DNA of 64,000 nucleotides, from the NCBI GenBank assembly GCA_035250485.1, contig DATFFB010000041.1, forward strand, positions 3,047 to 67,046, in the 5' to 3' direction. This DNA comes from Acidimicrobiia bacterium. Its GTDB lineage: Bacteria; Actinomycetota; Acidimicrobiia; Spongiisociales; ZC4RG35. Below the pieces are notes generated by a model. The model did no database searches, was not told the origin of the DNA, and saw only the letters and a program-made list of their open reading frames with translations. Positions 45,332 to 63,461 of this stretch are shown one piece after another; the first letter of the stretch is position 1, and each line of letters starts with the position of its first letter. The position numbers were made by a program, and so were the translations under genes.

Positions 45332-46096
45332 CTAGGTCGGGTCGAGACTGAGCACGGATCCAATCGTCTGGAAGCCTTGGTCGGCTGCCCAGAGGTCCAA
45401 TGCAAGGGTGGCGACGTCGTCGACCAGTGGGACCACCTCTCTTGATCCGGGCAGGCGGAGATCGAAGGTCTTGATGTAAGCCTTGCAAGTCTCACAACTG
45501 TCGACCCGGGCCCAGGGCCATCGCTCGTTGGTGAAGACGCCGAGTCGCCGAGGATGGTGCTCTCGACAATTCGGGCACGTTGCCCGCCCGAATCCCCAGG
45601 CAGTGGCGCAGCGAACGCAGATCAAGTATCGGGCGGCTCCGGCCATGAACTCCCCCGATTGCTCGACGATGACCGAGAGCTTGGGCAACCCTCCACAGAT
45701 CGGACAGCTCCCCTCTTGCCAGGTCGCCGGCACCGTCGCCCGGGCGGCCTCCCCCTCCACAATCGGTGCCTCGGCGACGGACCAGAAGAACGCATCGGCC
45801 ACCTCGGGCGACGCCAAAGGCGCGAACGGCGCCAGGGTGGCCAATGCCTGTTCGTGCTCACGAGAGATCAGGTCGGATACCAAGTCGAGGTCGAGAGGAG
45901 CCGTCAACAGCTGAGTCGCCTCCCGGACTTCGGCATCACTCGCTCGCACCTGTTGATATCCGAATACGACCGCCAGAAACTCCAGGAGATCGGACACCAT
46001 CGGCTCGGCTGCAACGAGGGCCAAGGCCCGCTGGCGACGCACCACGAACTCCGCCGGCCCGCCCTTAATCGGCGCCTTCATGCTCTCTTCCGGCAT
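45332..46096 (-). CDS. fdhE: formate dehydrogenase accessory protein FdhE
   Basis: Cys pairs CPICGG...CVRCATAW...CPNC...CETCKAYIK; positioned downstream of fdnI. The start may be the second ATG (46081). Confidence 0.85.
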   Translation of the reverse strand: MPEESMKAPIKGGPAEFVVRRQRALALVAAEPMVSDLLEFLAVVFGYQQVRASDAEVREATQLLTAPLDLDLVSDLISREHEQALATLAPFAPLASPEVADAFFWSVAEAPIVEGEAARATVPATWQEGSCPICGGLPKLSVIVEQSGEFMAGAARYLICVRCATAWGFGRATCPNCREHHPRRLGVFTNERWPWARVDSCETCKAYIKTFDLRLPGSREVVPLVDDVATLALDLWAADQGFQTIGSVLSLDPT

Positions 46097-46736
46097 CGAC
46101 TCGGCGGAACCAACGGGGATGATGAAAGGCGGCCCAAGCCCGGCTGACGGTACCCGAAGTCATCGAGCGGAAGGTGCCCGGAAAGCGAGCTGTGGAAAGG
46201 TAAACGTGGACGACGAGGAAGCCAGCGGCCATGAGGAAGAAGACATGGTGTGAAAATCTCGCCGCCAGATTCCATTCCCGCGGCATCAAGTCCGGGAGCC
46301 AAAGCGGAATGCCGGTAGCCAACAACACCAGCCCATTGATGACCGAAAACCAGTAGTACGCCTTCTGGCCGCCATTGAACTTGTCTGTATCTGTATCGGT
46401 GTGGCCGGTACGAACGTATTCCCCGAGGTTGCGGAACCAGTGCCGGTCGACGGAATGAAAGCTCATCGACGGCAGCCACATGGCGAACATGAAGACGAGG
46501 CCAACAGTGAAACCAACCCCGACCCAGGGATGGACGAATCGCACCGACTGGCCACCTCCCATGAGATCTAGCAACCAGGCCATGCGGGGGTAACCCAAGG
46601 CGAATCCGGACAGAAGTAGATAGAGGAAGGTCAGCGTCGTCCACCAATGCACGACCCGGACTCCGAAAGTGTGGCGGGTGATTAGTCGGGGTTCGTGCTC
46701 CCGGGCGAGTTCTTCGGCGGTGACAATTTCAGCCAT
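46065..46736 (-). CDS. fdnI: formate dehydrogenase gamma subunit (cytochrome b556)
   Basis: 223 aa from MAEIVTAEEL. Four TM segments with conserved His (VVHWWT..., HVFFLMAAGFLVVHVY). Confidence 0.8.
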   Translation of the reverse strand: MAEIVTAEELAREHEPRLITRHTFGVRVVHWWTTLTFLYLLLSGFALGYPRMAWLLDLMGGGQSVRFVHPWVGVGFTVGLVFMFAMWLPSMSFHSVDRHWFRNLGEYVRTGHTDTDTDKFNGGQKAYYWFSVINGLVLLATGIPLWLPDLMPREWNLAARFSHHVFFLMAAGFLVVHVYLSTARFPGTFRSMTSGTVSRAWAAFHHPRWFRRVDAGREHEGAD

Positions 46737-47652
46737 GAGGTGCTTTCTCATAGGCCGCCGCCACCGCCTCCTCCTCGGGCGGCGGATAGCGCTTGCCGGT
46801 CTTGAGGAAATAGACGGCCGCCGCCAGCAGGCCAGCCCAACTCGCCGTGGCCCCAACCTTGCGAAGGGCACCGATCAGTGAGGGGAAGCTGGTGGGAGCG
46901 GTGACGGTTGGGTCTACCGGCAACCCGTACTGTTCGAGAATCTCACCCCGTGGCACCACGTACATCATGTGCAACCCGCCGACTCCGACCGGGTCGTAGA
47001 GCATCGCCTCCGAGAAGCCCCGGGCCTTGAGCTTCTCGACCTTCTCGAGTCCATAAGAGAGCATGTCTTCTTTGGTTCCAAACCGGATCGCCCCCGTTGG
47101 GCAGGCCTTGACGCAAGCGGGTTCGAGACCAGTCGAAACCCGGTCGATGCAGAGCGTGCACTTGTAGACCTTCTTGGTCACGGTGTCGAAGCGAGGGATG
47201 TCGAATGGACAGCCGCTCACGCAGTATTGACACCCGATGCAGGCATCCTGGTTGAAATCGACGATGCCGTTCTCGTACTGGATCACCGCCCCCGGGGCGG
47301 GACAGGCGAGAAGGCATCCCGGCTCTTCACAATGAAGACAGGAGTCCTTGCGGATAAGCCAGGCCAAAGCCCCTCCCGCCAGCTCCACCTCGTTGAAACG
47401 CATCAGATCCCAGGTGTGGGCAGTGAGATCGGGGTGGCTCTGATACCCGGAGAAGAGGTGGGTCTCCTCCACCTGAAGGTCGTTCCACTCCTTGCAGGCA
47501 ACCTCGCAGGCCTTGCACCCGATGCAGAGGTCGATGTCGACCAGCTTCGAAATTTCAAGGGCAGGAGTCGAATGATCCCGTCGGATGTTCGTGCCCGAGG
47601 CGGGAGTGGCCGATTGCCTCCTGATGGTCAGACCGAGATCCGTCGTGGTCAT
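46729..47652 (-). CDS. fdnH: formate dehydrogenase beta subunit (4x[4Fe-4S], C-terminal TM anchor)
   Basis: 307 aa. CIGCKACEVACKEWN and three further ferredoxin-type Cys clusters. Confidence 0.9.
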   Translation of the reverse strand: MTTTDLGLTIRRQSATPASGTNIRRDHSTPALEISKLVDIDLCIGCKACEVACKEWNDLQVEETHLFSGYQSHPDLTAHTWDLMRFNEVELAGGALAWLIRKDSCLHCEEPGCLLACPAPGAVIQYENGIVDFNQDACIGCQYCVSGCPFDIPRFDTVTKKVYKCTLCIDRVSTGLEPACVKACPTGAIRFGTKEDMLSYGLEKVEKLKARGFSEAMLYDPVGVGGLHMMYVVPRGEILEQYGLPVDPTVTAPTSFPSLIGALRKVGATASWAGLLAAAVYFLKTGKRYPPPEEEAVAAAYEKAPHG

Positions 47653-47655
47653 CGC

Positions 47656-50600
47656 CTACGCCCTCTCGACATTGACCAGAAAGGCCTTGAACTCCGGGGT
47701 GACGGTGGTGCCATCACCGACATAGGGGGTGAGAAGGTTGACCATCTGAGCGGTATTCCCCTTGCCGTGCCCGCCGGTCGGGTGCCAGTGAACGGGGATT
47801 CCCACCTGGTAGACCACCTTGTTCCCCAGTCGCAGTGGACGCATGCGCTTGGTGACCAAGGCAACCCCCTGCACCTGCCCTCGTTTGGAACTCACCCGCA
47901 CCTGATCGAGGTCGCTGATCCCCTTCTCGCTGGCCAGTTCCCGGGGGAGCTCGATGAAGAAGTCGGGCATCGCCTCCACCAGATAGGGAACATATTGGGT
48001 GACGAAGTGCTCGTGCTCGGTCACCCGATAAGTCGTGGCGACATAGGGGAATTCACTGTCGTCTTCGGCGAAACTGGCTGCCACGCCTTCGTAGAGGATC
48101 GTGGTCGGTACCCGCCGGACGCGGCTGAGTACGTTTTCGACCGGGGATTCGACCGGCTCGTAGTGCTCGGGGATCGGACCGTCCATCATCAAAGAACCGG
48201 GAGCGAAGATCCGGGCCACCCCTTCCCCGGTCATGATGAATGCGCCTTTGCCCTCCGATGGCGGCGAGTCGGGGATGAAATCCGGGACATCGCCTTTCCA
48301 GGTTTGGCCATTCCAAACGATGCCGGGACGAGTGGGGTCCCAAGGGCGCCCATCAGCGTCAGCCGAGGCGCGGTTGTAAAGCACTCGCCGGTTGGCCGGC
48401 CAGGACCACGCCCAGTTGTGATAGAACCCGAGGCCGGTGGGATCGTCCGTTCCCCGCCGGTCCATCATGTTGCCTTCCTCGGTCCACGAGCCGGTGTAGA
48501 GCCAGTTACCGATGGCGGTGGAGCCGTCGTCCTTGGCGTCGTTGAAGGTCGAGAGCTGCTCTCCAGTGGTCAGGTCACGGCCGTTGATCTCTCGGGACAC
48601 CTCTTCAAGTGGAGGGTTGGTCGGATCGGAATAGGGCCAATCGAGATCGAGGATGGGATCGGGGAACGCGCCGCCCTCGGCGCGGTAGAGACGCTGAAGA
48701 CGGAGAAGCAACTGGGAAAGGATGTACGCGTCGTCTTTGATATCGCCCTCGGCGGGGAGAGCGGCGTGCTTCCACTGGGTCCAGCGACCGGAGTTGACGA
48801 AGGCCCCAGCCTTCTCGATCCAATGCGTGGTGGGGAGGAAGAAAACCTCGGTATCGACTGACGCCGGATCGATCCCGTCTCCGTGCCAGAACTCAGAGGA
48901 GGCAGTGGGAAACGGATCCATCACCACCAGCCACTTGAGTTTCGACAGGGCTTGGATGACCCGGTTGGAGTCGGGCCCGATGTTGACGCTCGACATGCCA
49001 GAGTTGAAGAGCCCATGCAGGCGACCTGCCAGCGCCTCGGCGTAGAACGTCATCCAAGACCAGTTCTTGTCGGGCTTGGGGAGATAGGAGTAGTGGAAGT
49101 CGTTCGAAGCTCGGGCTGAGTCGCCGTACCAGGCCTTCAAAAGGCTGACCATGAACTTGCGATAGTTCGAGCCGAAGAAATTGATCGAGCCCGCGTCCAT
49201 CTGAGTAAGCGAGGCCGGGGTCTCGTACTGGTCGAGGGTCTCCATCCCCGGCCGGGGGATGACGAGATAACCGGGGAGTATCTCCCATGATTGGGCGTTG
49301 TCGGTGTTGCCCTGGATATTGGCGTGACCGCGCTCGGCGTTCATGCCCCCACCGGGGCGACCCATATTCCCCAACAGCAGCTGGACGATGGCGGCGGCGC
49401 GAATCATCTGGGAACCCTGGGTGTGGTGGGTAAGGCCGACGGCATAGACGATGTTTCCCACCTTTTCGGGAACGCCGGTGGCTCCGAACTCATCGGCTAT
49501 GGCTAGGAACTCCGCGGCCGGGATTCCGGTGACTTCTTCCACCACCTCGGGGGTGTAGCGGGCGTAATGGGTCTTGAGCAGCTGGAAGACCGAACGTGGA
49601 TGCTGCAGCGTCGGGTCGCGGAGGGCGAACGGCTCCGGGTCCGTACCTTCACCGCCCGTGGGCGTGGCCGCCGCGACCCTTTCGTAGTCCCAGGTGGACG
49701 TGTCGTATTCGCGCGCCGTCTCGTCGTATCCGGAGAAGAGCCCGTCTTGAAACGAGTAGCCCTCGGCAACTACGAAAGAAGCGTTGGTGTGAAGTTTGAC
49801 GTACTCCTCGTGATAGAGCCGATTCTCGAGGATGTGCCGAATCATTCCTCCGAAGAAGGCAACGTCCGTTCCCGCCCGAATTGCGACCCAATTGTCGGCG
49901 GTGGCGGAGGTGCGGGTGAACCGGGGATCGACGTGGATGATCCTGGCGCCGCGGTGATCACGGGCGTGAAATGCCCACTTCCAACCGCAGGGGTGGTTCT
50001 CGGCCGGGTTGGCGCCAATCACCAAGAACAGGTCGGAGTTCTTGAAGTCCACCCAGTGATTGGTCATCGCCCCCCTTCCAAACGTGGCGGCCAAACTGAC
50101 CACCGTGGGGCCGTGTCAAAGCCGGGCCTGTTGCTCTAGGCCCACCACCCCCAGTGCCCGCATCATCTTGGTGACGAGGTATCCCTCTTCATTGGTGATC
50201 GTGGCACCCCCGCCCCAGGCAAACCCCTCGTTGCGGTTCACGGTGTTGCCATCGGCATCGGTGGCGACGAATCGCTCGTCGCGGGCATCCTTCATCAAAC
50301 GAGCTAAGCGATCGAGGGCCTCCTCCCACGAGATCTGGGTCCACTCGCTCGCTCCCGGCGCCCGGTAGCGGGGATGTTCGATTCTTTCGGCAGAGAGGGC
50401 GAGCTGCATGGTGGCAGCGCCCTTGGGGCAGAGAGATCCACCGTTTACCGGACTGTCGGGGTCGCCTTCGATATGAATCAAATGCGGCGTGGTGTTGAAG
50501 CTCTGGGTCTGGCCCAGGCCGCCGACGTAGGCGATCATCGAGCAGCCCACCGCGCAGTACGGGCAGACCGAACGCACCTCGCTGGCCCGACTGATCTTCA

Positions 50601-50706
50601 AATCCTTGATCATGGCCTGCGCCGGTGCGAGATCGAAGCCGAGTCCCGCCAAGGCAGCGGCCCCAACGACGCCCCCTTGAATGAACGTTCGACGGGTGAC
50701 CTTCAT
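47656..50706 (-). CDS. fdnG: formate dehydrogenase-N/O-type alpha subunit, selenocysteine-containing (UGA at 50116-50118)
   Basis: Track ORFs 50116..50787 and 47656..50103 are in the same frame. The junction reads ...GLEQQARL-UGA-HGPTVVSLAATFGRGAMTNHW, which matches the canonical FdnG Sec site. Tat signal MKVTRRTFIQGG from the ATG at 50706. Confidence 0.9.
50086..50104 (-). promoter_or_regulatory. candidate SECIS hairpin of fdnG
   Basis: mRNA GGUGGUC-AGUUU-GGCCGCC: 7-bp stem including two G-U pairs, starting 11 nt after the UGA. Confidence 0.45.
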
Positions 50707-50780
50707 CTGCGGTCCTTCATTCGAACCTGTACGCATCAGCCCGACTTGACGGGTCGAAATACCCGGGGCTGAGTCGGTTG

Positions 50781-50806
50781 AAACCAAAAGCGCCCCGTGG
50801 GGGAGC
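50781..50806 (-). terminator. intrinsic terminator after clpB
   Basis: mRNA GCUCCCCCACGGGGCGC followed by UUUUGGUUU. A second 8-bp hairpin (50810-50834) lies directly after the stop codon. Confidence 0.6.
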
Positions 50807-54627: not shown

Positions 54628-55302
54628 TTAGGACGAGACGAAGCTGACAATCGTCTCTCGAAGTCGATCGGTGTCTGGTGGGACCTTCATCGAGGCGAGT
54701 CCGGCATCGGCCACCTCGGTCGGGATCAATCCCCCTCGTCGCCGTTCCACCAATGCGGTCACGAACTCTGTAGTGAACTCGGGATGACCCTGGAATCCCA
54801 GGATGTGGTCGCCAACCGCGACCATCTCGACGGGGTTGGTGTCGGCGCTGGCTAGCACCCGCATTCCTGGAGCGAGAGCGACGATCTGGTCGGCATTGCA
54901 ATGCAGGATTCGCAAGCGACCCCCGTCAACCATCTCCGCTTCTTTGATCCCCACCTGCCAGCCTTGGGGTGCTCGAGTCACCCTGCCTCCTAAAGCCTCT
55001 CCGATCATCTGCGCCCCAAAGCAGACGCCGACATACTTGCGGCGCTCAGCGTCGATCCGTCGCAGGAGTTCTTTGAATCGATTTATCCAATCGAGGTCGT
55101 CGTACACCGACAGTCGGGAGCCGGCCCCAACCCAGGCGTCAATGGATTCCAGATCCGCCGGGAAGTCGCCGACCGTGAGATCGAAGGGGCGAATCTCGGC
55201 GCCGGGTAACAACTGCGAGAACATGTCCGGATAGTCACCAAAATCGCGGCGGAGCTCGGAGGGGATGTGGTCGCTGAGGAGAAGGCCGAGTCGCACGGTC
55301 AT
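54628..55302 (-). CDS. class I glutamine amidotransferase-like protein (possible gamma-glutamyl amide hydrolase)
   Basis: 224 aa. Nucleophile region VGVCFGAQMIG and GFQGHPEF. Confidence 0.75.
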   Translation of the reverse strand: MTVRLGLLLSDHIPSELRRDFGDYPDMFSQLLPGAEIRPFDLTVGDFPADLESIDAWVGAGSRLSVYDDLDWINRFKELLRRIDAERRKYVGVCFGAQMIGEALGGRVTRAPQGWQVGIKEAEMVDGGRLRILHCNADQIVALAPGMRVLASADTNPVEMVAVGDHILGFQGHPEFTTEFVTALVERRRGGLIPTEVADAGLASMKVPPDTDRLRETIVSFVSS

Positions 55303-56666
55303 TCCCCAATGAAGATGGTCTTGAGCTCGGTGTATTGCTCGAGGGCGGCCATGCCTTGCTCGCGCCCGAATCCCGACTGCTTGACGCCCCCGAACGGAGC
55401 CTCGATATGGACGCTCGACGACGAATTGATCGAGATCATCCCGGTCTCCACTGCCTTTGCCACCCGCAAAGCCCGACCAATATCACTCGTCCAGAGCGAA
55501 CCGGAGAGCCCGTAGATGGAATCATTCGCCAGCCGAATTGCTTCCTCTTCGTTGTCGAATGGGATGATTCCCACCACCGGCCCGAAGATCTCGTCCTGCA
55601 TCACCCGCATGTTCGTATTGACGTCGAGCATGACCGTTGGTGTGAGAAAGTTTCCTGGTAGCTCGGGCTGCTTGCCCCCCACCGCGATCGTGGCACCTTC
55701 CGCCCGGCCGATCTCAAGATATTCGACGACTCGTCGCCGATGAGCTGCGGTGATGAGCGGACCCATTTCGGTCTGGTCAAGGACCGGATCACCGAGCTTG
55801 ATTGCCCGCGTCGCCGCCACGAAGCGCTCCACGACCTCGGAATAGACCCCACGCTCGACGAGCATCCGGCTGCGAGCGCAGCAGTCCTGCCCGGCGTTGT
55901 CGTACACGGACCAGAGCGAGGAAGCTAAGCAAGCATCGAGATCGGCGTCGGCGAAGACGATGTTGGCTGATTTGCCACCCAGTTCCAGCGATACCCGCTT
56001 GATCGTTCCGGCTGCCGCTTCCATAACCCGGCGTCCGACCTCGGTCGAGCCGGTGAAGGAGATCTTGGAGACCAAGGGGTGATTGATCAGTGCCTCGCCG
56101 GCGGCAGAGCCCCGGCCGGTGACAACGTTCAAAGCCCCGTCGGGGAGCCCTGCTTCGAGCGCCAGATCGGTCAGGGCCAGCGCCGAGAGCGGTGTCACTT
56201 CTGCGGGCTTCAAGACCACGGTGTTGCCCATGGCCAGGGCAGGAGCGACCTTCCACCCCGCGATCACCATCGGAAAGTTCCACGGCACGATGGCCCCGCA
56301 GACTCCGATCGGATGGCGCCACGTCAAGAGGGTGCCCGGCGCGTTGCCGGGGATGGTGTCGCCTCCAAACTTGTCGGTGACGCCGGCATAGAAATCGAAG
56401 GTTGCAGCGACGGCGCCGATCTCGCCCCGAGCCGCGCTGATCGGCTTTCCGGTGTTCATGGATTCGAGCCTCGCCAAGCGTTCGTGATCACGTCGGATCA
56501 GGTCAGCGATCCGTCTCATGACATCGCGACGTTCCCGCACCGGGGCCTGACTCCAGGATCGAAAGGCTTCCCGAGCATGCTCCACCGCGACATCGACTTC
56601 AGCCGGACCAAGAGCCGGGACCTCGTCGATAGGCTCGGCGGTGGCGGGATTGACGAGGACGGTCAC
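55299..56666 (-). CDS. NAD(P)-dependent aldehyde dehydrogenase
   Basis: ELGGKS and catalytic Cys region GQDCCARSR. The proposed GTG start at 56666 forms a GTGA overlap with the stop of the upstream MerB-like gene. The track ORF extends to 56774. Confidence 0.85.
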   Translation of the reverse strand: MTVLVNPATAEPIDEVPALGPAEVDVAVEHAREAFRSWSQAPVRERRDVMRRIADLIRRDHERLARLESMNTGKPISAARGEIGAVAATFDFYAGVTDKFGGDTIPGNAPGTLLTWRHPIGVCGAIVPWNFPMVIAGWKVAPALAMGNTVVLKPAEVTPLSALALTDLALEAGLPDGALNVVTGRGSAAGEALINHPLVSKISFTGSTEVGRRVMEAAAGTIKRVSLELGGKSANIVFADADLDACLASSLWSVYDNAGQDCCARSRMLVERGVYSEVVERFVAATRAIKLGDPVLDQTEMGPLITAAHRRRVVEYLEIGRAEGATIAVGGKQPELPGNFLTPTVMLDVNTNMRVMQDEIFGPVVGIIPFDNEEEAIRLANDSIYGLSGSLWTSDIGRALRVAKAVETGMISINSSSSVHIEAPFGGVKQSGFGREQGMAALEQYTELKTIFIGE

Positions 56667-57325
56667 GACCCGAGATTCCAGAAAGGGCTGGTGAGCCCGA
56701 GGTCGTTGAGGATTCTTTGATTCTGTTCTCGGGTGTGAGGCTTCCAGTGGCTGGCCAAACGATCGCCCCACCAAGCGCTTGCGAGGTCAGAGAGCTGGCG
56801 AGTTGAGAGGACCGCCCCCCGCTGTCTTCCCGCCAGCCATCGCTTCAAATGTTCCTCCGACCGGAAGAGCAGCATGGTTCCTCAGGTGTGCGTGATGTCG
56901 TCCCACCACCGGGCCGCGGGAACCAGCACATGGAAAATCGAAGCCTCGTCATCCGGCCGGCCCTCGGTCACTGCTATCCGGATGGGGTTGGAGCAGTCCG
57001 GGCAGACGGTCTCGATAACCGAATCTAGGCCCAAGGCAGCACCGATTCCGAACGCATCCCAGGCGCAGTTGGCAAACCAACTGCGCTCGCCGGTTGAAAC
57101 CTTGAATTCAGTCTCCCGCCCTGCGAAAGGGTTGGCCATCAGCAATTCACCGGTCTCGCTATCGAGCACTAGTGCATGAGCCTCGTGCAGCCGTCGCCAG
57201 CCTTCCTGGACAACCTGCGAGGAAACGCCAAGAGCATCGGCAACCTCGTCCGCCGAAGGAGCTCGTCCGAGATCCGCGAACTGGTGATAAGTGGTGTTGC
57301 GCAATTCGAGATCGACCTTCTCCAT
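56663..57325 (-). CDS. alkylmercury lyase (MerB)-like protein with in-frame UGA (candidate selenocysteine at the MerB Cys159-equivalent position)
   Basis: Track ORFs 56882..57325 and 56663..56875 share a frame and are separated only by TGA-GGA-ACC. NCAWD matches the MerB C96xxD99 motif. HT-U-GTMLLFRSEEHLKRW aligns with MerB SFC-C-HVHFFASVPTAEDW. The fused length of 220 aa is close to MerB's ~212 aa. Confidence 0.65.
56851..56870 (-). promoter_or_regulatory. candidate SECIS hairpin downstream of the UGA in the MerB-like gene
   Basis: mRNA G-C-U-CUUCC-GGUC-GGAGG-A-A-C. The stem starts 11 nt after the UGA. The apical GGUC resembles the E. coli fdhF SECIS loop as I recall it. Confidence 0.4.
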
Positions 57326-57454: not shown

Positions 57455-58651
57455 GTGAGCGAAGGAACCATCGCCTGGCTCTTGATCAGCTCCGCGCTGG
57501 TGCTGTTCATGACCCCCGGACTGGCTCTTTTCTATGGCGGGATGGTCCGTTCGAAGAACGTTCTCAACATGCTGATGAAGAACTTCTTCACGATCTCCAT
57601 CGTGACCGTGGTCTGGACCGTCATCGGCTACACCCTCGCCTTCGGCACAGACATCGGCGGGCTGATAGGGGGACTCGACTTCTTCGCCCTGCGGGGTGTC
57701 GAAGGCGACAGCCTTCTTTTCATGGTCTTCCAGATGATGTTCGCCATCATCACCCCCGCCCTGATCTCAGGGGCAGTCGCCGAACGGATGAAGTTCTCCG
57801 CCTGGGTCCTCTTCACCACCCTGTGGGCCCTGATCATCTATCCGATCGTCGCCCATTGGGGCTTCGCCGCCGATGGCTGGCTCTTCGCCTGGGGTGTCCG
57901 TGACTTCGCCGGCGGCCTGGTGGTCCACATCAATGCCGGGATTGCCGCCCTGGCCCTGGTCTTCGCCCTCGGACCCCGTCGTGGGTTCGGAGCGGAGGTG
58001 ATGCGGCCCCACTCCCTACCGCTCACTCTGCTGGGGACCGGCATCCTCTGGTTCGGGTGGTTTGGTTTCAACGCCGGCTCCGCTTTGGCCGCCGATGGCA
58101 TCGCCGTCAGCGCCTTCGTCACGACGCAGATCGCCGCCTCGGTGGCGGCCCTGGGCTGGGTGGTCGCCGAGTGGATGAAGACCGGCAAGCCCACCACTCT
58201 CGGCGCGGCCTCCGGAGCCGTGGCCGGCTTGGTTGCCATCACTCCCGGAGCGGGCTTCGTCTCGCCGATGTCGGCCATAGCCATCGGCGCCGTCGCCGGT
58301 TTTCTCTGCTTCCTAGCGGTGAGTCTCAAGTTTCGCTTCGGCTACGACGACTCCCTCGACGTGGTCGGAGTCCATCTGGTAGGCGGCATCGTCGGTTCGG
58401 TCCTGGTGGGGGTCTTCGCCGAAAGCCGGGTCAACACAGCCGTTCCCGATGGCCTGCTCTTCGGCGGGGCGAGCTTCTTTTTCAAGCAGGTCGTCGCCGT
58501 GCTGGCGGTGATCGCCTTCACCTTCATCGCCACCTACCTGCTGGCTCGCATCGTCAAAGCCCTCACCGGCCTGCGGGTCGAGGAGAATCAGGAAACCGAA
58601 GGTCTCGACATCTCGCTCCACGAAGAGCGGGGTTATGTGTTCTCGGAATAG
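57455..58651 (+). CDS. amt: ammonium transporter
   Basis: 398 aa Amt/MEP family (FAGGLVVHINAG, GFNAGSAL, VHLVGGIVG). GTG start after a GGAGG RBS. Confidence 0.95.
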   Translation: MSEGTIAWLLISSALVLFMTPGLALFYGGMVRSKNVLNMLMKNFFTISIVTVVWTVIGYTLAFGTDIGGLIGGLDFFALRGVEGDSLLFMVFQMMFAIITPALISGAVAERMKFSAWVLFTTLWALIIYPIVAHWGFAADGWLFAWGVRDFAGGLVVHINAGIAALALVFALGPRRGFGAEVMRPHSLPLTLLGTGILWFGWFGFNAGSALAADGIAVSAFVTTQIAASVAALGWVVAEWMKTGKPTTLGAASGAVAGLVAITPGAGFVSPMSAIAIGAVAGFLCFLAVSLKFRFGYDDSLDVVGVHLVGGIVGSVLVGVFAESRVNTAVPDGLLFGGASFFFKQVVAVLAVIAFTFIATYLLARIVKALTGLRVEENQETEGLDISLHEERGYVFSE

Positions 58652-61310
<2,659 letters not shown>

Positions 61311-61314
61311 CTCA

Positions 61315-62088
61315 CTAGAGCGGGGTGACGTAGGCCGAGGTGATTCCACCGTCGACTAGGAAGGTGGCACCGGTCGTAAAGGAAGACTCGTCTGAGGCAA
61401 GCCAGAGCGCGGCCCGCGCCATCTCCTTGGCTTCTCCGAACCGACCCATAGGAATGTGAACCAGCCGCCGAGCCTTCTTTTCCTCCGTGTCAAGGAATTT
61501 CATCAGGAGTTCGGTGTGAAGGGGACCCGGACAGAGAGCGTTTACCCGGATGCCTTCGCGGGCATGCAAAACGGCCAGTTCGCGCGTCATCGACAGCACG
61601 GCTCCCTTCGATGCCGTGTAGGCCACCTGCGGCGTGGCTGCCCCCAACATTGCCACGAAGGAGGCGGTGTTGATGATCGATCCCCCGCCAGCGCGACGCA
61701 GGGCGGGGATCCCGAACTTGCATCCCAGAAACACTCCTTTGGCGTTGATGCTCATCGTCAGATCCCACACTTCCTCGTCCGTCGAAACCGCATCGTCGTC
61801 ATTCGAGTGCATGATCCCGGCGTTGTTGAACAACACGTCGAGACGACCAAACTCGGATTCAGCGGTCGTGACCATCGCCTCGCAATCGGCGGCCTTCGAC
61901 ACATCTGCTCCGACAGCGGTTGCCCGGCCCCCGCTCCGGTTGACGTCATTAGCCACCGCCACAGCCGCCTCCCGATCGAGGTCGACGGCGACCACCGATG
62001 CGCCCTCGGCTGCAAACAGGAAGGTGGCTTCGCGACCGATCCCTCCGGCGGCGCCAGTGATCAGCGCCACCTTGTTCTCCAGTCTCAT
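61315..62088 (-). CDS. SDR family oxidoreductase
   Basis: 257 aa from MRLENKVALITGAAGGIG, with YTASK catalytic motif. The start overlaps the upstream GS-like gene's stop by 1 nt (TGATG). Confidence 0.85.
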   Translation of the reverse strand: MRLENKVALITGAAGGIGREATFLFAAEGASVVAVDLDREAAVAVANDVNRSGGRATAVGADVSKAADCEAMVTTAESEFGRLDVLFNNAGIMHSNDDDAVSTDEEVWDLTMSINAKGVFLGCKFGIPALRRAGGGSIINTASFVAMLGAATPQVAYTASKGAVLSMTRELAVLHAREGIRVNALCPGPLHTELLMKFLDTEEKKARRLVHIPMGRFGEAKEMARAALWLASDESSFTTGATFLVDGGITSAYVTPL

Positions 62089-63461
62089 CAGATGCGCTCG
62101 AAGTACCGCCACCGCTCCCAGTCGGTGACGGAGTTGTCAAAAGCGTCTTGCTCCTGACGGAAGAAGTGGGTGTAGTGCTCCTGGACGTCCTCCCCGAAAG
62201 CGGCCTTGACAAACTCCGAAGCCGAGAAGTTGTCCGTCGCTTCCCGCAACGTTCGCGGCACTCGGGCTAGTTCGGATGCTTGATAGATGTCGCCGGAGAA
62301 ATGTGCTGGCGGCTCGATCTCTTTGGCAATCCCGTCGAGTCCCGCCGCCAGCACAGCCGCATAGGCGAGGTAGGGGTTGCAATCAGCCCCCGGAATCCGG
62401 CACTCGATGCGCAAGCCCGAGCCGTGACCGACCACTCGGAACCCGGCGGTGCGGTTGTCGTAGGACCAGGCGATTCGAGTCGGGGCCCACGACCCGTCTT
62501 GATAGCGCTTGTACGAGTTGATCGTCGGAGCGAAAAAGGGCATCACGTCGGGGACATGGGTCATCCATCCGCCCAAGAAATGGCGGAAGGTCGGAGACAC
62601 CTCTATTGGACCCTCCAATGCTTCGCCGGGGAATGCGTTGATATCGCCCGACCACAGACTCAGGTGGATGTGACAGGAGGAGCCGGCTTCGCTCATCTGT
62701 GGCTTGGCCATGAATGTCACCGACATGTCGAGCGACTCGGCGATCTCCTTCATCGCCAGCTTCATGATCGAGTGCCGGTCGGCCATCTCCAGCACCTCTG
62801 CGTAGCGAATGTTCATCTCGTGCTGGCCCCGGCCCCATTCCCCTTTCGAATTCTCCACCGGAATCCCGGAAGCCGAAAGATGCCGGCGGACGGCCCCGTT
62901 GTACTTTTCCTCTCGCATCCCCTGCAGCAGGTGATAGTCCTCGATGTACCAGCCAACGGGGTTGAGGTCCTGGTAGCGGCGGGCGGCCGCATCCCGGTAG
63001 CTGTCCTGAAAGAGGAAGTACTCAATTTCCGAGGCGCCCTGGGCTGTGAACCCCGACTCTCCCGCCCGCTCGAGCTGCCGCCGGAGAATGGTCCGGGGGG
63101 CGACCGCGACAAGATCGTGGTGGTGCGGATCATGCAAATCGGAGAGGACGATGGCACTGCGGTCGAGCCAGCTTGCGACCCGCATCGTCCCCAGATCGGG
63201 AACCATGTGGAAGTCCCCATAGCCCAACTCCCAATTGGCGTATTTGTAACCAGGCACCGGTTCCATCTCCATGTCGACGGTGAGGAGGTAGTCACAACCG
63301 TGGGTGCCGGCCCTGGCAATGTCCTCGAGGAAATAAGAGCCCTCAAATCGCTTGCCGTGAAGGCGGCCGTAGTGATCGGTGAATGCCACCACCACGGTGT
63401 CAATCTTCCCCGTGTCTACCAACCCGGCCAGGTCGTCCGTGGTCAACAGCCCCCGAGTCAT
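62088..63461 (-). CDS. glutamine synthetase family protein (gamma-glutamyl-amine synthetase-like, GlnA2/3/4 type)
   Basis: 457 aa with GS catalytic domain blocks (EVAPGQ-like region, GSSCHIHLSLW, NRTAGFRV). Confidence 0.85.
   Translation of the reverse strand: MTRGLLTTDDLAGLVDTGKIDTVVVAFTDHYGRLHGKRFEGSYFLEDIARAGTHGCDYLLTVDMEMEPVPGYKYANWELGYGDFHMVPDLGTMRVASWLDRSAIVLSDLHDPHHHDLVAVAPRTILRRQLERAGESGFTAQGASEIEYFLFQDSYRDAAARRYQDLNPVGWYIEDYHLLQGMREEKYNGAVRRHLSASGIPVENSKGEWGRGQHEMNIRYAEVLEMADRHSIMKLAMKEIAESLDMSVTFMAKPQMSEAGSSCHIHLSLWSGDINAFPGEALEGPIEVSPTFRHFLGGWMTHVPDVMPFFAPTINSYKRYQDGSWAPTRIAWSYDNRTAGFRVVGHGSGLRIECRIPGADCNPYLAYAAVLAAGLDGIAKEIEPPAHFSGDIYQASELARVPRTLREATDNFSASEFVKAAFGEDVQEHYTHFFRQEQDAFDNSVTDWERWRYFERI

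What the first reader, a model, noticed from the sequence alone, without database searches (positions are those of the whole stretch)
56663..57325. MerB-like lyase with UGA exactly at the catalytic-Cys position: candidate undescribed selenoprotein, split into two ORFs by the track
Seen in sequence: ORFs 56882..57325 (147 aa) and 56663..56875 (70 aa) are in the same frame on the minus strand, separated only by TGA GGA ACC. Neither half is a complete alkylmercury-lyase fold on its own. From my memory of plasmid R831b MerB (catalytic C96, D99, C159), the N-terminal half carries FANCAWDAF, matching the C96-x-x-D99 motif. The junction ITHT-U-GTMLLFRSEEHLKRW aligns residue for residue with QSFC-C-HVHFFASVPTAEDW (F, S and W conserved), which places the UGA at C159. 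The fused product is 220 aa against about 212 aa for MerB. A hairpin with apical loop GGUC begins 11 nt after the UGA (56851-56870). The same window holds an unambiguous Sec-containing FdnG, so the organism decodes UGA as Sec. I do not recall a Sec-containing MerB-family member being described. The context is also unexpected. There is no mer operon, and the gene's stop is translationally coupled (GTGA) to an aldehyde dehydrogenase and a glutamine-amidotransferase-like hydrolase. This argues for a function other than classical Hg resistance, perhaps cleavage of another carbon-metal(loid) or carbon-heteroatom bond.
Basis: partly seen in the sequence, partly recalled or inferred. Interest (0 to 1): 0.85.

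Follow-up and report, generated by a model that had tools for sequence, protein, structure and literature searches.

The report
Selenocysteine MerB-like lyase, mis-split gene
The two short ORFs are one gene for a 220-residue relative of the mercury-carbon lyase MerB with selenocysteine (UGA) at a catalytic cysteine position; it belongs to a large family in soil Actinomycetota and Chloroflexota that databases cut in two, and a different selenocysteine-containing MerB relative (SaoL) was described in 2022.

Summary
Observation confirmed. Window 56663-57325 (-) is one reading frame with a single in-frame TGA (56882-56884). Pfam MerB spans it. A profile alignment to solved MerB puts the TGA on Cys159, with Cys87 on Cys96 and Asp90 on Asp99.

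In 157 homologous loci from genomes and metagenomes, the junction codon is TGA in 154 and TAG in 3. The terminal stops of the same genes vary freely (TGA 41, TAG 29, TAA 4). The downstream ~71 codons are conserved as protein.

A 7-bp hairpin with a GGUC loop lies 12 nt after the TGA. It is frozen at synonymous sites, shows covariation, and is absent from all six TGC (Cys) homologs.

One TAG locus is Blastococcus, a genus reported to read UAG as Sec. The window also holds a Sec-type FdnG.

So this is very probably a real selenoprotein gene.

A Sec-containing MerB relative (SaoL, Haft & Gwadz 2022/2023) is already known, although this clade fails the SaoL model, motif, taxa and gene context. The ALDH/GATase linkage is kept only in the five closest loci. 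The substrate is unknown; carbon-metal(loid) bond cleavage is inferred.

Verdict: new variant of a known kind, interest about 0.55.

The parts
56663..57325 (-). Complete selenoprotein gene: 220 codons plus terminal TGA. MerB-superfamily protein with Sec at residue 148.
   Evidence: one frame, and Pfam MerB PF03243 (93.5 bits, cutoff 27) covers residues 67-186 across the TGA; the same architecture in 157 loci.
57128..57325 (-). N-terminal winged-helix-like domain (residues 1-66), as in MerB itself.
   Evidence: Weak Sigma70_r3/GntR hits. In the model of homolog P0453 the N-terminal domain matches LexA/DtxR/MntR winged-helix domains. The profile alignment to MerB starts at about residue 24.
56768..57127 (-). 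MerB catalytic domain (Pfam PF03243, residues 67-186), interrupted by the Sec codon.
   Evidence: profile positions 1-125 of 126 are matched in one stretch when U is written as C.
57065..57067 (-). Cys87 codon (TGC), equivalent to MerB Cys96.
   Evidence: Profile-to-PDB alignment 'fanCawDafG' with MerB 'YAWCALDTLI'. Invariant in 75 Sec-form genes and in the divergent set A3.
57056..57058 (-). Asp90 codon (GAT), equivalent to MerB Asp99, the proton donor in MerB.
   Evidence: invariant in the Sec forms.
56993..57004 (-). C108-P-D-C111 motif. Cys108 aligns to MerB Cys117. The second Cys is common in close relatives but not universal.
   Evidence: C108 invariant, C111 at least 90% in A2. Less conserved in the divergent set A3. 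Its role is not known.
56882..56884 (-). In-frame UGA = Sec148, equivalent to MerB catalytic Cys159.
   Evidence: 'ftCstmllF' aligns to MerB 'SFC159C160HVHFF', and the C160S chain 3f2g shows FCSHV. The codon is TGA in 78/80 genome loci, in 76/77 intact metagenome loci and in the divergent loci L084-L090. It is Cys in all 7 uninterrupted homologs.
56852..56869 (-). SECIS-like hairpin: CUCUUCC-GGUC-GGAGGAA. The stem starts 12 nt after the UGA and the loop starts 19 nt after it. It lies inside codons L153-F-R-S-E-E158.
   Evidence: Synonymous freezing: L153 CTC 0.99, R155 CGG 1.00, S156 TCG 1.00, against 4-6 codons for conserved Leu/Arg/Ser elsewhere. 94.4% of cells paired against 49-64% in slid controls; 3 pairs changed on both sides; 0/500 shuffles reach the covariation score. 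Absent from all 6 TGC genes.
56666..56881 (-). C-terminal 72 codons downstream of Sec, which complete the MerB fold. Databases call this a separate 70-aa hypothetical protein.
   Evidence: Conserved as protein with free synonymous variation. Modelled at high confidence as part of a single fold in homolog P0453. MerB/MerB2 structures align over their whole length.
56663..56665 (-). True stop codon (TGA), overlapping the GTG start (56664-56666) of the downstream aldehyde dehydrogenase.
   Evidence: Terminal stops of orthologs vary: TGA 41, TAG 29, TAA 4.
50116..50118 (-). Supporting context, not part of the gene: the Sec UGA of the FdnG-like formate dehydrogenase in the same window, which indicates that the organism decodes UGA as Sec.
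   Evidence: '...QQARL*HGPTV...'. Its downstream hairpin loop starts at the same distance from the UGA as in the MerB-like gene. FdnH, FdnI and FdhE follow.

Best explanation
Window 56663-57325 (-) is a single gene for a 220-residue selenoprotein of the MerB (organomercurial lyase) superfamily.

Decoding (inferred from sequence, not seen experimentally): the ribosome reaches UGA148, and the SelB/Sec-tRNA(Sec) complex is recruited by the hairpin 12 nt downstream (7-bp stem, GGUC loop). Selenocysteine is inserted, and translation runs on for 72 codons to the real stop.

Shown by alignment and a homolog model: Sec148 occupies the position of MerB Cys159, Cys87 that of Cys96 and Asp90 that of Asp99. 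Both 'halves' are needed for one MerB fold.

Catalysis (inferred by analogy with MerB): the thiolate and selenolate bind the metal or metalloid of an organometallic substrate, and Asp90 protonates the leaving carbon, cleaving a carbon-metal(loid) bond.

The gene belongs to a large, almost entirely Sec-containing clade in Actinomycetota and Chloroflexota. This clade is distinct from classical MerB and from SaoL, has no conserved gene neighbourhood, and is routinely annotated as a truncated 147-aa 'organomercurial lyase' plus a 70-aa hypothetical protein. The physiological substrate is unknown.
For: 1. One frame, with the Pfam MerB domain contiguous across the TGA.
2. The junction codon is TGA in 78/80 genome loci, 76/77 intact metagenome loci and the divergent loci L084-L090. 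The terminal stops of the same genes are TGA 41, TAG 29, TAA 4.
3. The downstream ~71 codons are conserved as protein and use many synonymous codons.
4. Cys occupies this column in all uninterrupted homologs: P0323, P0352, P0376, P0453, Ralstonia, Sphingomonas and M. gallinarum.
5. The column aligns to MerB Cys159, with the Cys96 and Asp99 equivalents invariant.
6. The hairpin is frozen at synonymous sites (CTC 0.99, CGG 1.00, TCG 1.00), 94.4% paired, and has compensatory changes C:G to U:A and U:A to C:G.
7. The hairpin is present in the TGA/TAG genes (94.4% of stem cells paired over 104 distinct sequences) and absent from all 6 TGC genes.
8. The three TAG loci include Blastococcus jejuensis. 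Geodermatophilaceae carry tRNA-Sec(CUA) and read UAG as Sec (PMC5330540). All three keep the hairpin and end in TGA.
9. The window has a Sec-type FdnG whose hairpin loop lies at the same distance from its UGA.
10. An AlphaFold model of the full-length Cys homolog P0453 (pLDDT 91.5) matches only MerB2/MerB over the whole chain (E about 1e-11, TM up to 0.74).
Against: - There is no experimental evidence of Sec insertion.
- selA, selB, selD and tRNA-Sec are not in the 64-kb window, and the rest of the genome could not be scanned.
- The stem is so conserved that most of its support is conservation, not covariation; the outermost pair is unpaired in 30 of 104 sequences.
- The catalytic role and substrate are pure analogy. 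A selenolate would bind Hg(II) very tightly, which could hinder product release. No MerA or other mer gene lies nearby.
Confidence: 0.9

Rival explanations
1. A naturally split MerB-like protein. Translation stops at the TGA, and the 70-aa C-terminal piece is made separately by re-initiation at the ATG three codons downstream. The two chains then assemble.
For: The Met at +3 is invariant in the first 78 loci. Gene callers annotate the 69-70-aa ORF separately in more than 500 clusters. In the window, TGAGGA upstream of the ATG looks faintly like a Shine-Dalgarno site.
Against: - In many divergent lineages the +3 codon is ATC or ATT (Ile), with no start codon nearby (L086-L088, L091, L092, L094, L106, L111, L114-L117, L124, L150, L160, L163).
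- A mere stop would vary as the terminal stops do (TGA 41, TAG 29, TAA 4), yet the junction is TGA in 154 of 157 loci.
- The stop falls exactly on the catalytic Cys column, so a split protein would lack that residue.
- The rival does not explain the synonymous-site freezing of the hairpin, or its loss in TGC genes.
- Most loci have no SD-like sequence ('TGA AGC ACG ATG').
Confidence: 0.03
2. A pseudogene, or a sequencing or assembly error: a nonsense mutation in a former Cys codon of a decaying MerB-like gene.
For: TGA is one substitution away from TGC/TGT. The source is a metagenome-assembled genome. A few related loci do look damaged (L070, L148).
Against: The same TGA is found in 154 independent loci across two phyla, with the downstream frame intact and under purifying selection. 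At least 92 of the 150 50%-identity representatives end at this same column.
Confidence: 0.01
3. The UGA is decoded, but not as Sec. Examples are near-cognate read-through inserting Trp or Cys, stimulated by the downstream hairpin, or a local genetic-code change.
For: Two rare relatives carry TGG (Trp) at this codon (L081, L083), so Trp is at least tolerated in the sequence record.
Against: - The same genes often use TGA as their own terminal stop (41 of 74), so TGA is not reassigned.
- The hairpin has the position and the G-U-containing apical loop of a bacterial SECIS, and matches the FdnG element of the same window in spacing.
- The codon switches to TAG in Blastococcus, a genus of the family reported to have tRNA-Sec(CUA).
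- The column is Cys, the usual Sec counterpart, in the uninterrupted homologs.
Confidence: 0.04
4. It is simply a member of the already described SaoL family (Selenocysteine-Assisted Organometallic Lyase), so nothing here is new.
For: Same superfamily and the same catalytic position for Sec (MerB Cys159). [quoted passage not shown]
Against: - The NCBIfam SaoL model NF040728 scores 35.3 bits against a cutoff of 140 and matches only residues 26-123.
- The motif is T-U, not C-U.
- None of 160 loci shows a nine-gene SAO neighbourhood or any other conserved neighbour.
- The hosts are Acidimicrobiia, Gaiellales, Thermoleophilia, Geodermatophilaceae, Limnocylindrales and similar, whereas SaoL is reported only from anaerobes such as Clostridioides, Syntrophobacter and Brachyspira.
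Confidence: 0.03

Closest known systems
SaoL, the MerB-like selenoprotein of the SAO locus (Haft & Gwadz 2022 bioRxiv / 2023 J Bacteriol; NCBIfam NF040728)
   Same: MerB superfamily (PF03243). Sec replaces the MerB Cys159-equivalent, and the Cys96 and Asp99 equivalents are kept. The family is almost entirely Sec-containing with very rare Cys forms. Annotation pipelines truncate it at the UGA. It is not part of a mer resistance operon.
   Different: Scores far below the SaoL HMM cutoff (35 against 140 bits). The motif is T-U instead of C-U. It is a stand-alone gene with a variable neighbourhood, not a marker of a nine-gene locus with further selenoproteins. It is found in Actinomycetota and Chloroflexota of soil and groundwater, including aerobic cultured Blastococcus, not in strict anaerobes. 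Whether Sec use arose independently was not tested.
MerB / MerB2 organomercurial lyase (EC 4.99.1.2; PDB 3F0P, 1S6L, 5C17)
   Same: Fold: Foldseek E about 1e-11 and TM up to 0.74 over the full length for homolog P0453. N-terminal winged-helix-like domain plus catalytic core. The Cys96/Asp99/Cys159 positions are conserved.
   Different: Sec in place of Cys159. Only 17-19% identity. Below the NCBIfam MerB equivalog cutoffs (35 against 193, and 33 against 200). No merA, merR, merT or merP nearby. Chromosomal, not on mobile elements. Has an extra CPDC motif.
Uninterrupted Cys-type MerB-like proteins of Proteobacteria (Ralstonia megaplasmid, Paraburkholderia, Sphingomonas 'merB')
   Same: Full-length colinear homologs (27-31% identity, 98-100% coverage) with Cys in the Sec column, also outside mer operons.
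   Different: TGC instead of TGA, and no hairpin. The Asp99-equivalent is Cys (C-x-x-C) instead of Asp.
UAG-encoded selenoproteins of Geodermatophilaceae (Mukai et al. 2016, as cited in PMC5330540)
   Same: In Blastococcus jejuensis (L053) and two related metagenome loci (L013, L139) this gene carries TAG at the Sec position with the hairpin retained.
   Different: The families named in the passage read for these organisms are formate dehydrogenase, UGSC-motif proteins and AhpC. That passage does not mention a MerB-like member.

Membership tests
MerB superfamily (Pfam PF03243) | Significant match to the MerB domain model over its full length | tested here: met
   93.5 bits against a gathering cutoff of 27; profile positions 1-125 of 126 in one stretch across the Sec codon.
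MerB superfamily (Pfam PF03243) | MerB three-dimensional fold formed by the whole chain | tested here: met
   Tested on a proxy. The AlphaFold2 model of the full-length Cys homolog P0453 (pLDDT 91.5, pTM 0.85) matches only MerB2/MerB at full length (E 9e-12 to 5e-10, TMt 0.62-0.74). The window protein itself could not be submitted.
MerB superfamily (Pfam PF03243) | Catalytic residues equivalent to Cys96, Asp99 and Cys159 | tested here: met
   Cys87, Asp90 and Sec148 align to them. Cys87 and Asp90 are invariant in the Sec forms. Sec substitutes for Cys159.
Organomercurial lyase MerB proper (NCBIfam NF009710 / NF033555; EC 4.99.1.2) | Score above the curated equivalog cutoff | tested here: not met
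   35.3 bits against 193, and 32.9 against 200.
Organomercurial lyase MerB proper (NCBIfam NF009710 / NF033555; EC 4.99.1.2) | Location in a mer operon with merA, merR and transport genes | tested here: not met
   No MerA signature in 1.1 Mb around 170 loci, and an HMA motif in one locus only. No conserved neighbour. The window neighbours are ALDH, GATase, Amt and GlnD.
Organomercurial lyase MerB proper (NCBIfam NF009710 / NF033555; EC 4.99.1.2) | Protonolysis of Hg-C bonds | not testable with these tools
   Needs an enzyme assay.
SaoL (NCBIfam NF040728) | Score above the curated equivalog cutoff | tested here: not met
   35.3 bits against 140; only residues 26-123 are matched.
SaoL (NCBIfam NF040728) | C-U (Cys-Sec) dipeptide at the active site | tested here: not met
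   The motif is [FHY]-T-U in 150+ loci.
SaoL (NCBIfam NF040728) | Nine-gene SAO neighbourhood (ABC transporter selenoproteins, SaoE, SaoC, SaoT, SaoD) | tested here: not met
   No neighbour family occurs in more than 7 of 80 loci. The window context is unrelated.
Bacterial selenoprotein (standard computational criteria) | In-frame UGA conserved among orthologs, with a conserved downstream coding frame | tested here: met
   154 TGA and 3 TAG among 157 intact junctions; the downstream ~71 aa are conserved.
Bacterial selenoprotein (standard computational criteria) | Cys-containing homologs aligned at the Sec position | tested here: met
   Invariant Cys in 7 uninterrupted homologs. Their codon is TGC.
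Bacterial selenoprotein (standard computational criteria) | SECIS stem-loop immediately downstream of the UGA | tested here: met
   7-bp stem with a GGUC loop starting 19 nt after the UGA; synonymous freezing, covariation, and loss in the Cys forms. No dedicated bSECIS predictor was available, and Rfam has no matching family.
Bacterial selenoprotein (standard computational criteria) | Sec-decoding machinery (selA, selB, selD, tRNA-Sec) in the genome | tested here: inconclusive
   None lies in the 64-kb window, but a Sec-type FdnG does. The rest of the genome is not available.
Bacterial selenoprotein (standard computational criteria) | Selenium actually incorporated into the protein | not testable with these tools
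   Needs 75Se labelling or mass spectrometry.

The most novel reading that the evidence does not exclude
This is the founding example of a second selenocysteine-dependent branch of the MerB superfamily, not described in the literature I could search, and possibly acquired independently of SaoL. It would be a stand-alone enzyme, very widespread in mostly aerobic soil and groundwater Actinomycetota and Chloroflexota. It would cleave carbon-metal(loid) bonds without any MerA partner, for example as a mer-operon-independent demethylase of methylmercury or a lyase for another organometal(loid). Public databases systematically hide it by splitting it into a 147-aa and a 70-aa ORF.
Probability: 0.3. 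Interest if true: 0.8.

Novelty: new variant of a known kind. Interest (0 to 1): 0.55.

Why it matters
- Annotation. More than 2,500 protein clusters at 90% identity match the query, and the listed matches are filed as truncated 'organomercurial lyase' fragments. Over 570 clusters are 70-aa 'hypothetical proteins'. All of these should be merged into single selenoprotein genes, and NCBIfam has no model for the clade.
- Biology. In the accessible literature the only Sec-containing MerB relative is SaoL, which is tied to strict anaerobes and a large operon. A second, stand-alone clade in abundant soil lineages widens the place of selenium in organometal(loid) chemistry. It also offers a candidate for organomercury, or other organometal, turnover that does not depend on the mer operon.
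- Genetic code. The switch of this codon to TAG in Blastococcus is an independent natural control for the reported UAG=Sec recoding, and it adds a selenoprotein family to that lineage.
- Experiments. Blastococcus jejuensis JCM 15614 is a cultured carrier, so the prediction can be tested directly.

Tried and rejected
- Structure prediction of the window protein.
- Rfam at gathering thresholds found nothing in the window, not even at the FdnG SECIS. ARAGORN found no tRNA-Sec in the window or in the TAG loci.
- Synteny as a clue to function. tblastn of the window neighbours and all-against-all clustering of neighbouring ORFs gave no conserved partner. I rejected the ALDH/GATase link as lineage-specific.
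- Trp at the Sec column as a code-4 gene-calling artefact. Rejected, because the codon in L081 is a real TGG.
- A lower SECIS stem pairing AUG with CAY. Not conserved in divergent members, so I dropped it.
- Cluster look-up for organism names of divergent members returned no names.
- Literature. The main texts of the GOS 2008 paper, deep-Sep 2025 and BSepDB 2026 do not mention a MerB-like family. Haft & Tolstoy 2025 (mSystems) is not held, so I cannot exclude that it describes this clade.
- The organisms behind 'Organic mercuric lyase MerB2' in Peng et al. 2016 are not listed in the held supplements.
Full report
**1. The observation**

On the minus strand, 56663-57325 is one reading frame of 221 codons with one internal TGA (56882-56884) and a terminal TGA (56663-56665). 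The ORF list shows it as two pieces, of 147 aa and 70 aa.

With U written as C, Pfam MerB (PF03243) matches residues 67-186 in one stretch, covering profile positions 1-125 of 126 at 93.5 bits. The N-terminal piece alone reaches only profile position 80.

The hairpin, the GTGA overlap with an aldehyde dehydrogenase, and the FdnG in-frame TGA (50116-50118, '...QQARL*HGPTV...') are all present.

**2. Which residue the TGA replaces**

I built a profile from 20 family members plus three Cys forms and searched it against PDB sequences. It finds MerB2 (5c17, E 1.9e-18) and R831b MerB (1s6l, 3f0p, 3f2g; E about 1e-7).

The alignment places the TGA column on the first Cys of MerB's ...SF-C159-C160-HVHFF.... 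The C160S mutant chain reads FCSHV, which confirms the numbering. Cys87 falls on Cys96, Asp90 on Asp99 and Cys108 on Cys117.

His hand alignment is off by one residue.

**3. Is it real? Comparative evidence**

- A search with the fused protein returned 2,586 clusters. The best 120 are all 146-185 aa, most of them 146-147 aa, and all match only the N-terminal 67% of the query.
- A search with the C-terminal 72 aa returned 574 clusters, and the 120 listed are nearly all separately called ORFs of 69-70 aa.
- In 80 loci from species-representative genomes, the codon after the N-terminal match is TGA in 78 and TAG in 2. The hosts are Acidimicrobiia, Gaiellales, Thermoleophilia, Streptosporangiaceae, Mycobacteriales, Blastococcus, Limnocylindrales, Dehalococcoidia and Anaerolineaceae. 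A conserved frame of about 71 codons follows.
- The terminal stops of the same genes are TGA 41, TAG 29 and TAA 4, which serves as an internal control.
- A scan of metagenome contigs with a divergent alignment gave 76 TGA and 1 TAG among 77 intact junctions.
- At least 92 of the 150 representatives at 50% identity, down to 33% identity, end at this column. Four of them checked at the DNA level all show TGA plus the conserved downstream frame.
- Codons downstream of the TGA that encode conserved residues use 4-6 synonymous codons, so the frame is under protein-level selection.

**4. The RNA element**

After the TGA come 12 nt and then CUCUUCC-GGUC-GGARGAG.

- Elsewhere in the gene, conserved Leu, Arg and Ser use 4-6 codons (top codon 0.30-0.77). 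In the hairpin, L153 is CTC in 99%, R155 is CGG in 100% and S156 is TCG in 100% of 75 genes.
- On 104 distinct sequences, 94.4% of cells pair, against 49-64% when the 3' arm is slid. Three pairs change on both sides (C:G to U:A at two positions, U:A to C:G at one). None of 500 shuffles reaches the covariation score.
- Where Arg becomes Gln, the loop becomes AGUC and keeps G-U.
- The loop starts 19 nt after the UGA, the same spacing as the FdnG hairpin of this window. From memory, this is within 1 nt of the E. coli fdhF element.
- All six uninterrupted TGC genes lack the hairpin, even where Phe-Arg is retained (Arg is then CGC).
- One TGG variant still has a perfect hairpin and another has a degraded one.

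**5. A natural control**

The three TAG loci are L053 (Blastococcus jejuensis), L013 and L139. L053 and L013 are each other's closest relatives. All three keep the hairpin and end in TGA.

Geodermatophilaceae, including Blastococcus, are reported to carry tRNA-Sec with anticodon CUA and to decode UAG as Sec (PMC5330540, citing Mukai et al. 2016). A codon that follows the lineage's Sec codon is what a Sec position should do, and not what a mere stop should do.

**6. Rival explanations**

- Split gene with re-initiation at the ATG three codons downstream. This fails because that codon is ATC or ATT in many divergent lineages, because the stop is codon-specific, and because the split would delete the catalytic residue.
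- Pseudogene. Excluded by conservation.
- Non-Sec read-through. Unlikely given the SECIS-like element, the TAG switch, and the use of TGA as the true stop in the same genes.

**7. Fold**

I therefore modelled P0453, a 230-aa Cys-form homolog with the full Cys/Asp/Cys triad, using N-terminal and C-terminal fragments as its alignment. The model has mean pLDDT 91.5 and pTM 0.85.

Foldseek against the PDB finds only MerB2 and MerB at full length (E 9e-12 to 5e-10, TM 0.62-0.74 by target length, about 205-210 columns). After those come only winged-helix domains matching the N-terminal domain. The C-terminal 70 residues are therefore part of the MerB fold.

**8. Context**

In the window, the gene is followed by an aldehyde dehydrogenase, a GATase-like gene, an F420H2 quinone reductase and ClpB. 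It is preceded, divergently, by amt, glnK and glnD.

This arrangement is kept only in L001-L005. In 80 loci no neighbour family recurs in more than 7. No MerA signature occurs in 1.1 Mb of flanks. The family is a stand-alone gene, and its context does not reveal the substrate.

**9. What is known**

- Haft & Gwadz (bioRxiv 2022; J Bacteriol 2023) described SaoL. It is a MerB-like selenoprotein with a C-U motif, Sec aligned to MerB Cys159, restricted to anaerobes, and a marker of a nine-gene locus.
- Peng et al. 2016 list a 'MerB2' selenoprotein in 17 organisms.
- Reviews from 2022 and 2026 list only SaoL.
- The window protein scores 35 bits on the SaoL model (cutoff 140) and 35 bits on MerB (cutoff 193). 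It has T-U rather than C-U, different hosts and no SAO neighbourhood. NCBI annotation of this very protein is still split.

So the kind of thing is known. This clade appears not to be described in the literature I could search, and one relevant 2025 paper was not available.

**10. Mechanism and confidence**

- That this is a single selenoprotein gene decoded through the hairpin: about 0.9.
- That it cleaves a carbon-metal(loid) bond as MerB does: inference from the conserved triad and fold, perhaps 0.5.
- That mercury is the substrate: open.

**11. Verdict**

This is a genuine, systematically mis-annotated selenoprotein gene, and a new variant of a known kind (a Sec-containing MerB relative distinct from SaoL). 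Interest is about 0.55.

Noticed in passing
window 45332-50787 (-): An fdnG-fdnH-fdnI-fdhE operon. The FdnG-like gene carries a Sec UGA at 50116-50118, so it appears as two ORFs (50116..50787 and 47656..50103). The loop of its downstream hairpin starts at the same distance from the UGA as in the MerB-like gene.
   Followed up: partly
L053:6430-6432 (Blastococcus jejuensis), L013:6430-6432, L139:417-419: TAG instead of TGA at the Sec position, with the hairpin retained and TGA as the real stop. This fits the UAG=Sec recoding reported for Geodermatophilaceae. The passage read on selenoproteins of that family does not mention a MerB-like member.
   Followed up: partly
L081:255-950 and L083:160-828: Two metagenome relatives have a genuine TGG (Trp) codon at the Sec position. 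One has a perfect hairpin, which suggests a recent change or a sequencing error. The other has a degraded hairpin. It is unclear whether these are inactive variants.
   Followed up: partly
L171:5001-5654 (Ralstonia pGMI1000MP), L172:5010-5693 (Sphingomonas panacis plasmid): Uninterrupted proteobacterial homologs have Cys at the Sec column, but Cys instead of Asp at the Asp99-equivalent position (C-x-x-C). The Ralstonia gene has no feature in the plasmid gene table. The Sphingomonas gene is annotated merB and sits next to a DUF302 gene, not in a mer operon.
   Followed up: partly
L173:4572-5573 (Mycobacterium gallinarum pJCM6399): An 'alkylmercury lyase family protein' with an N-terminal extension of about 130 aa and a T-C-C motif. 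It lies in an island with two MerR regulators, ArsR, arsM and a redoxin.
   Followed up: no
window 54628-56666 (-), 57455-61310 (+), 61315-63461 (-): The MerB-like gene lies between an amt-glnK-glnD operon and a set of genes: a GS-like enzyme, a short-chain dehydrogenase, an aldehyde dehydrogenase and a GATase/peptidase-C26-like hydrolase. That set resembles a gamma-glutamylation pathway for amine catabolism. The arrangement is shared only with L001-L005.
   Followed up: partly
L070 and L148: Two family members look frameshifted downstream of, or near, the Sec codon. They are either pseudogenes or assembly errors.
   Followed up: no
L086:2468-2932: In the most divergent Sec-form lineage checked (33% identity, Ile at +3), the gene lies directly downstream of an Ada/OGT-like methyltransferase gene (PF01035). 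That family appears in the GOS 2008 table of selenoprotein families.
   Followed up: no
window 56993-57004 (-): A C-P-D-C motif: Cys108 aligns to MerB Cys117, with a second Cys three residues later. It is conserved in close relatives but not in divergent ones. It might serve as a hand-off or resolving pair for a metal bound to Sec; this was not tested.
   Followed up: no
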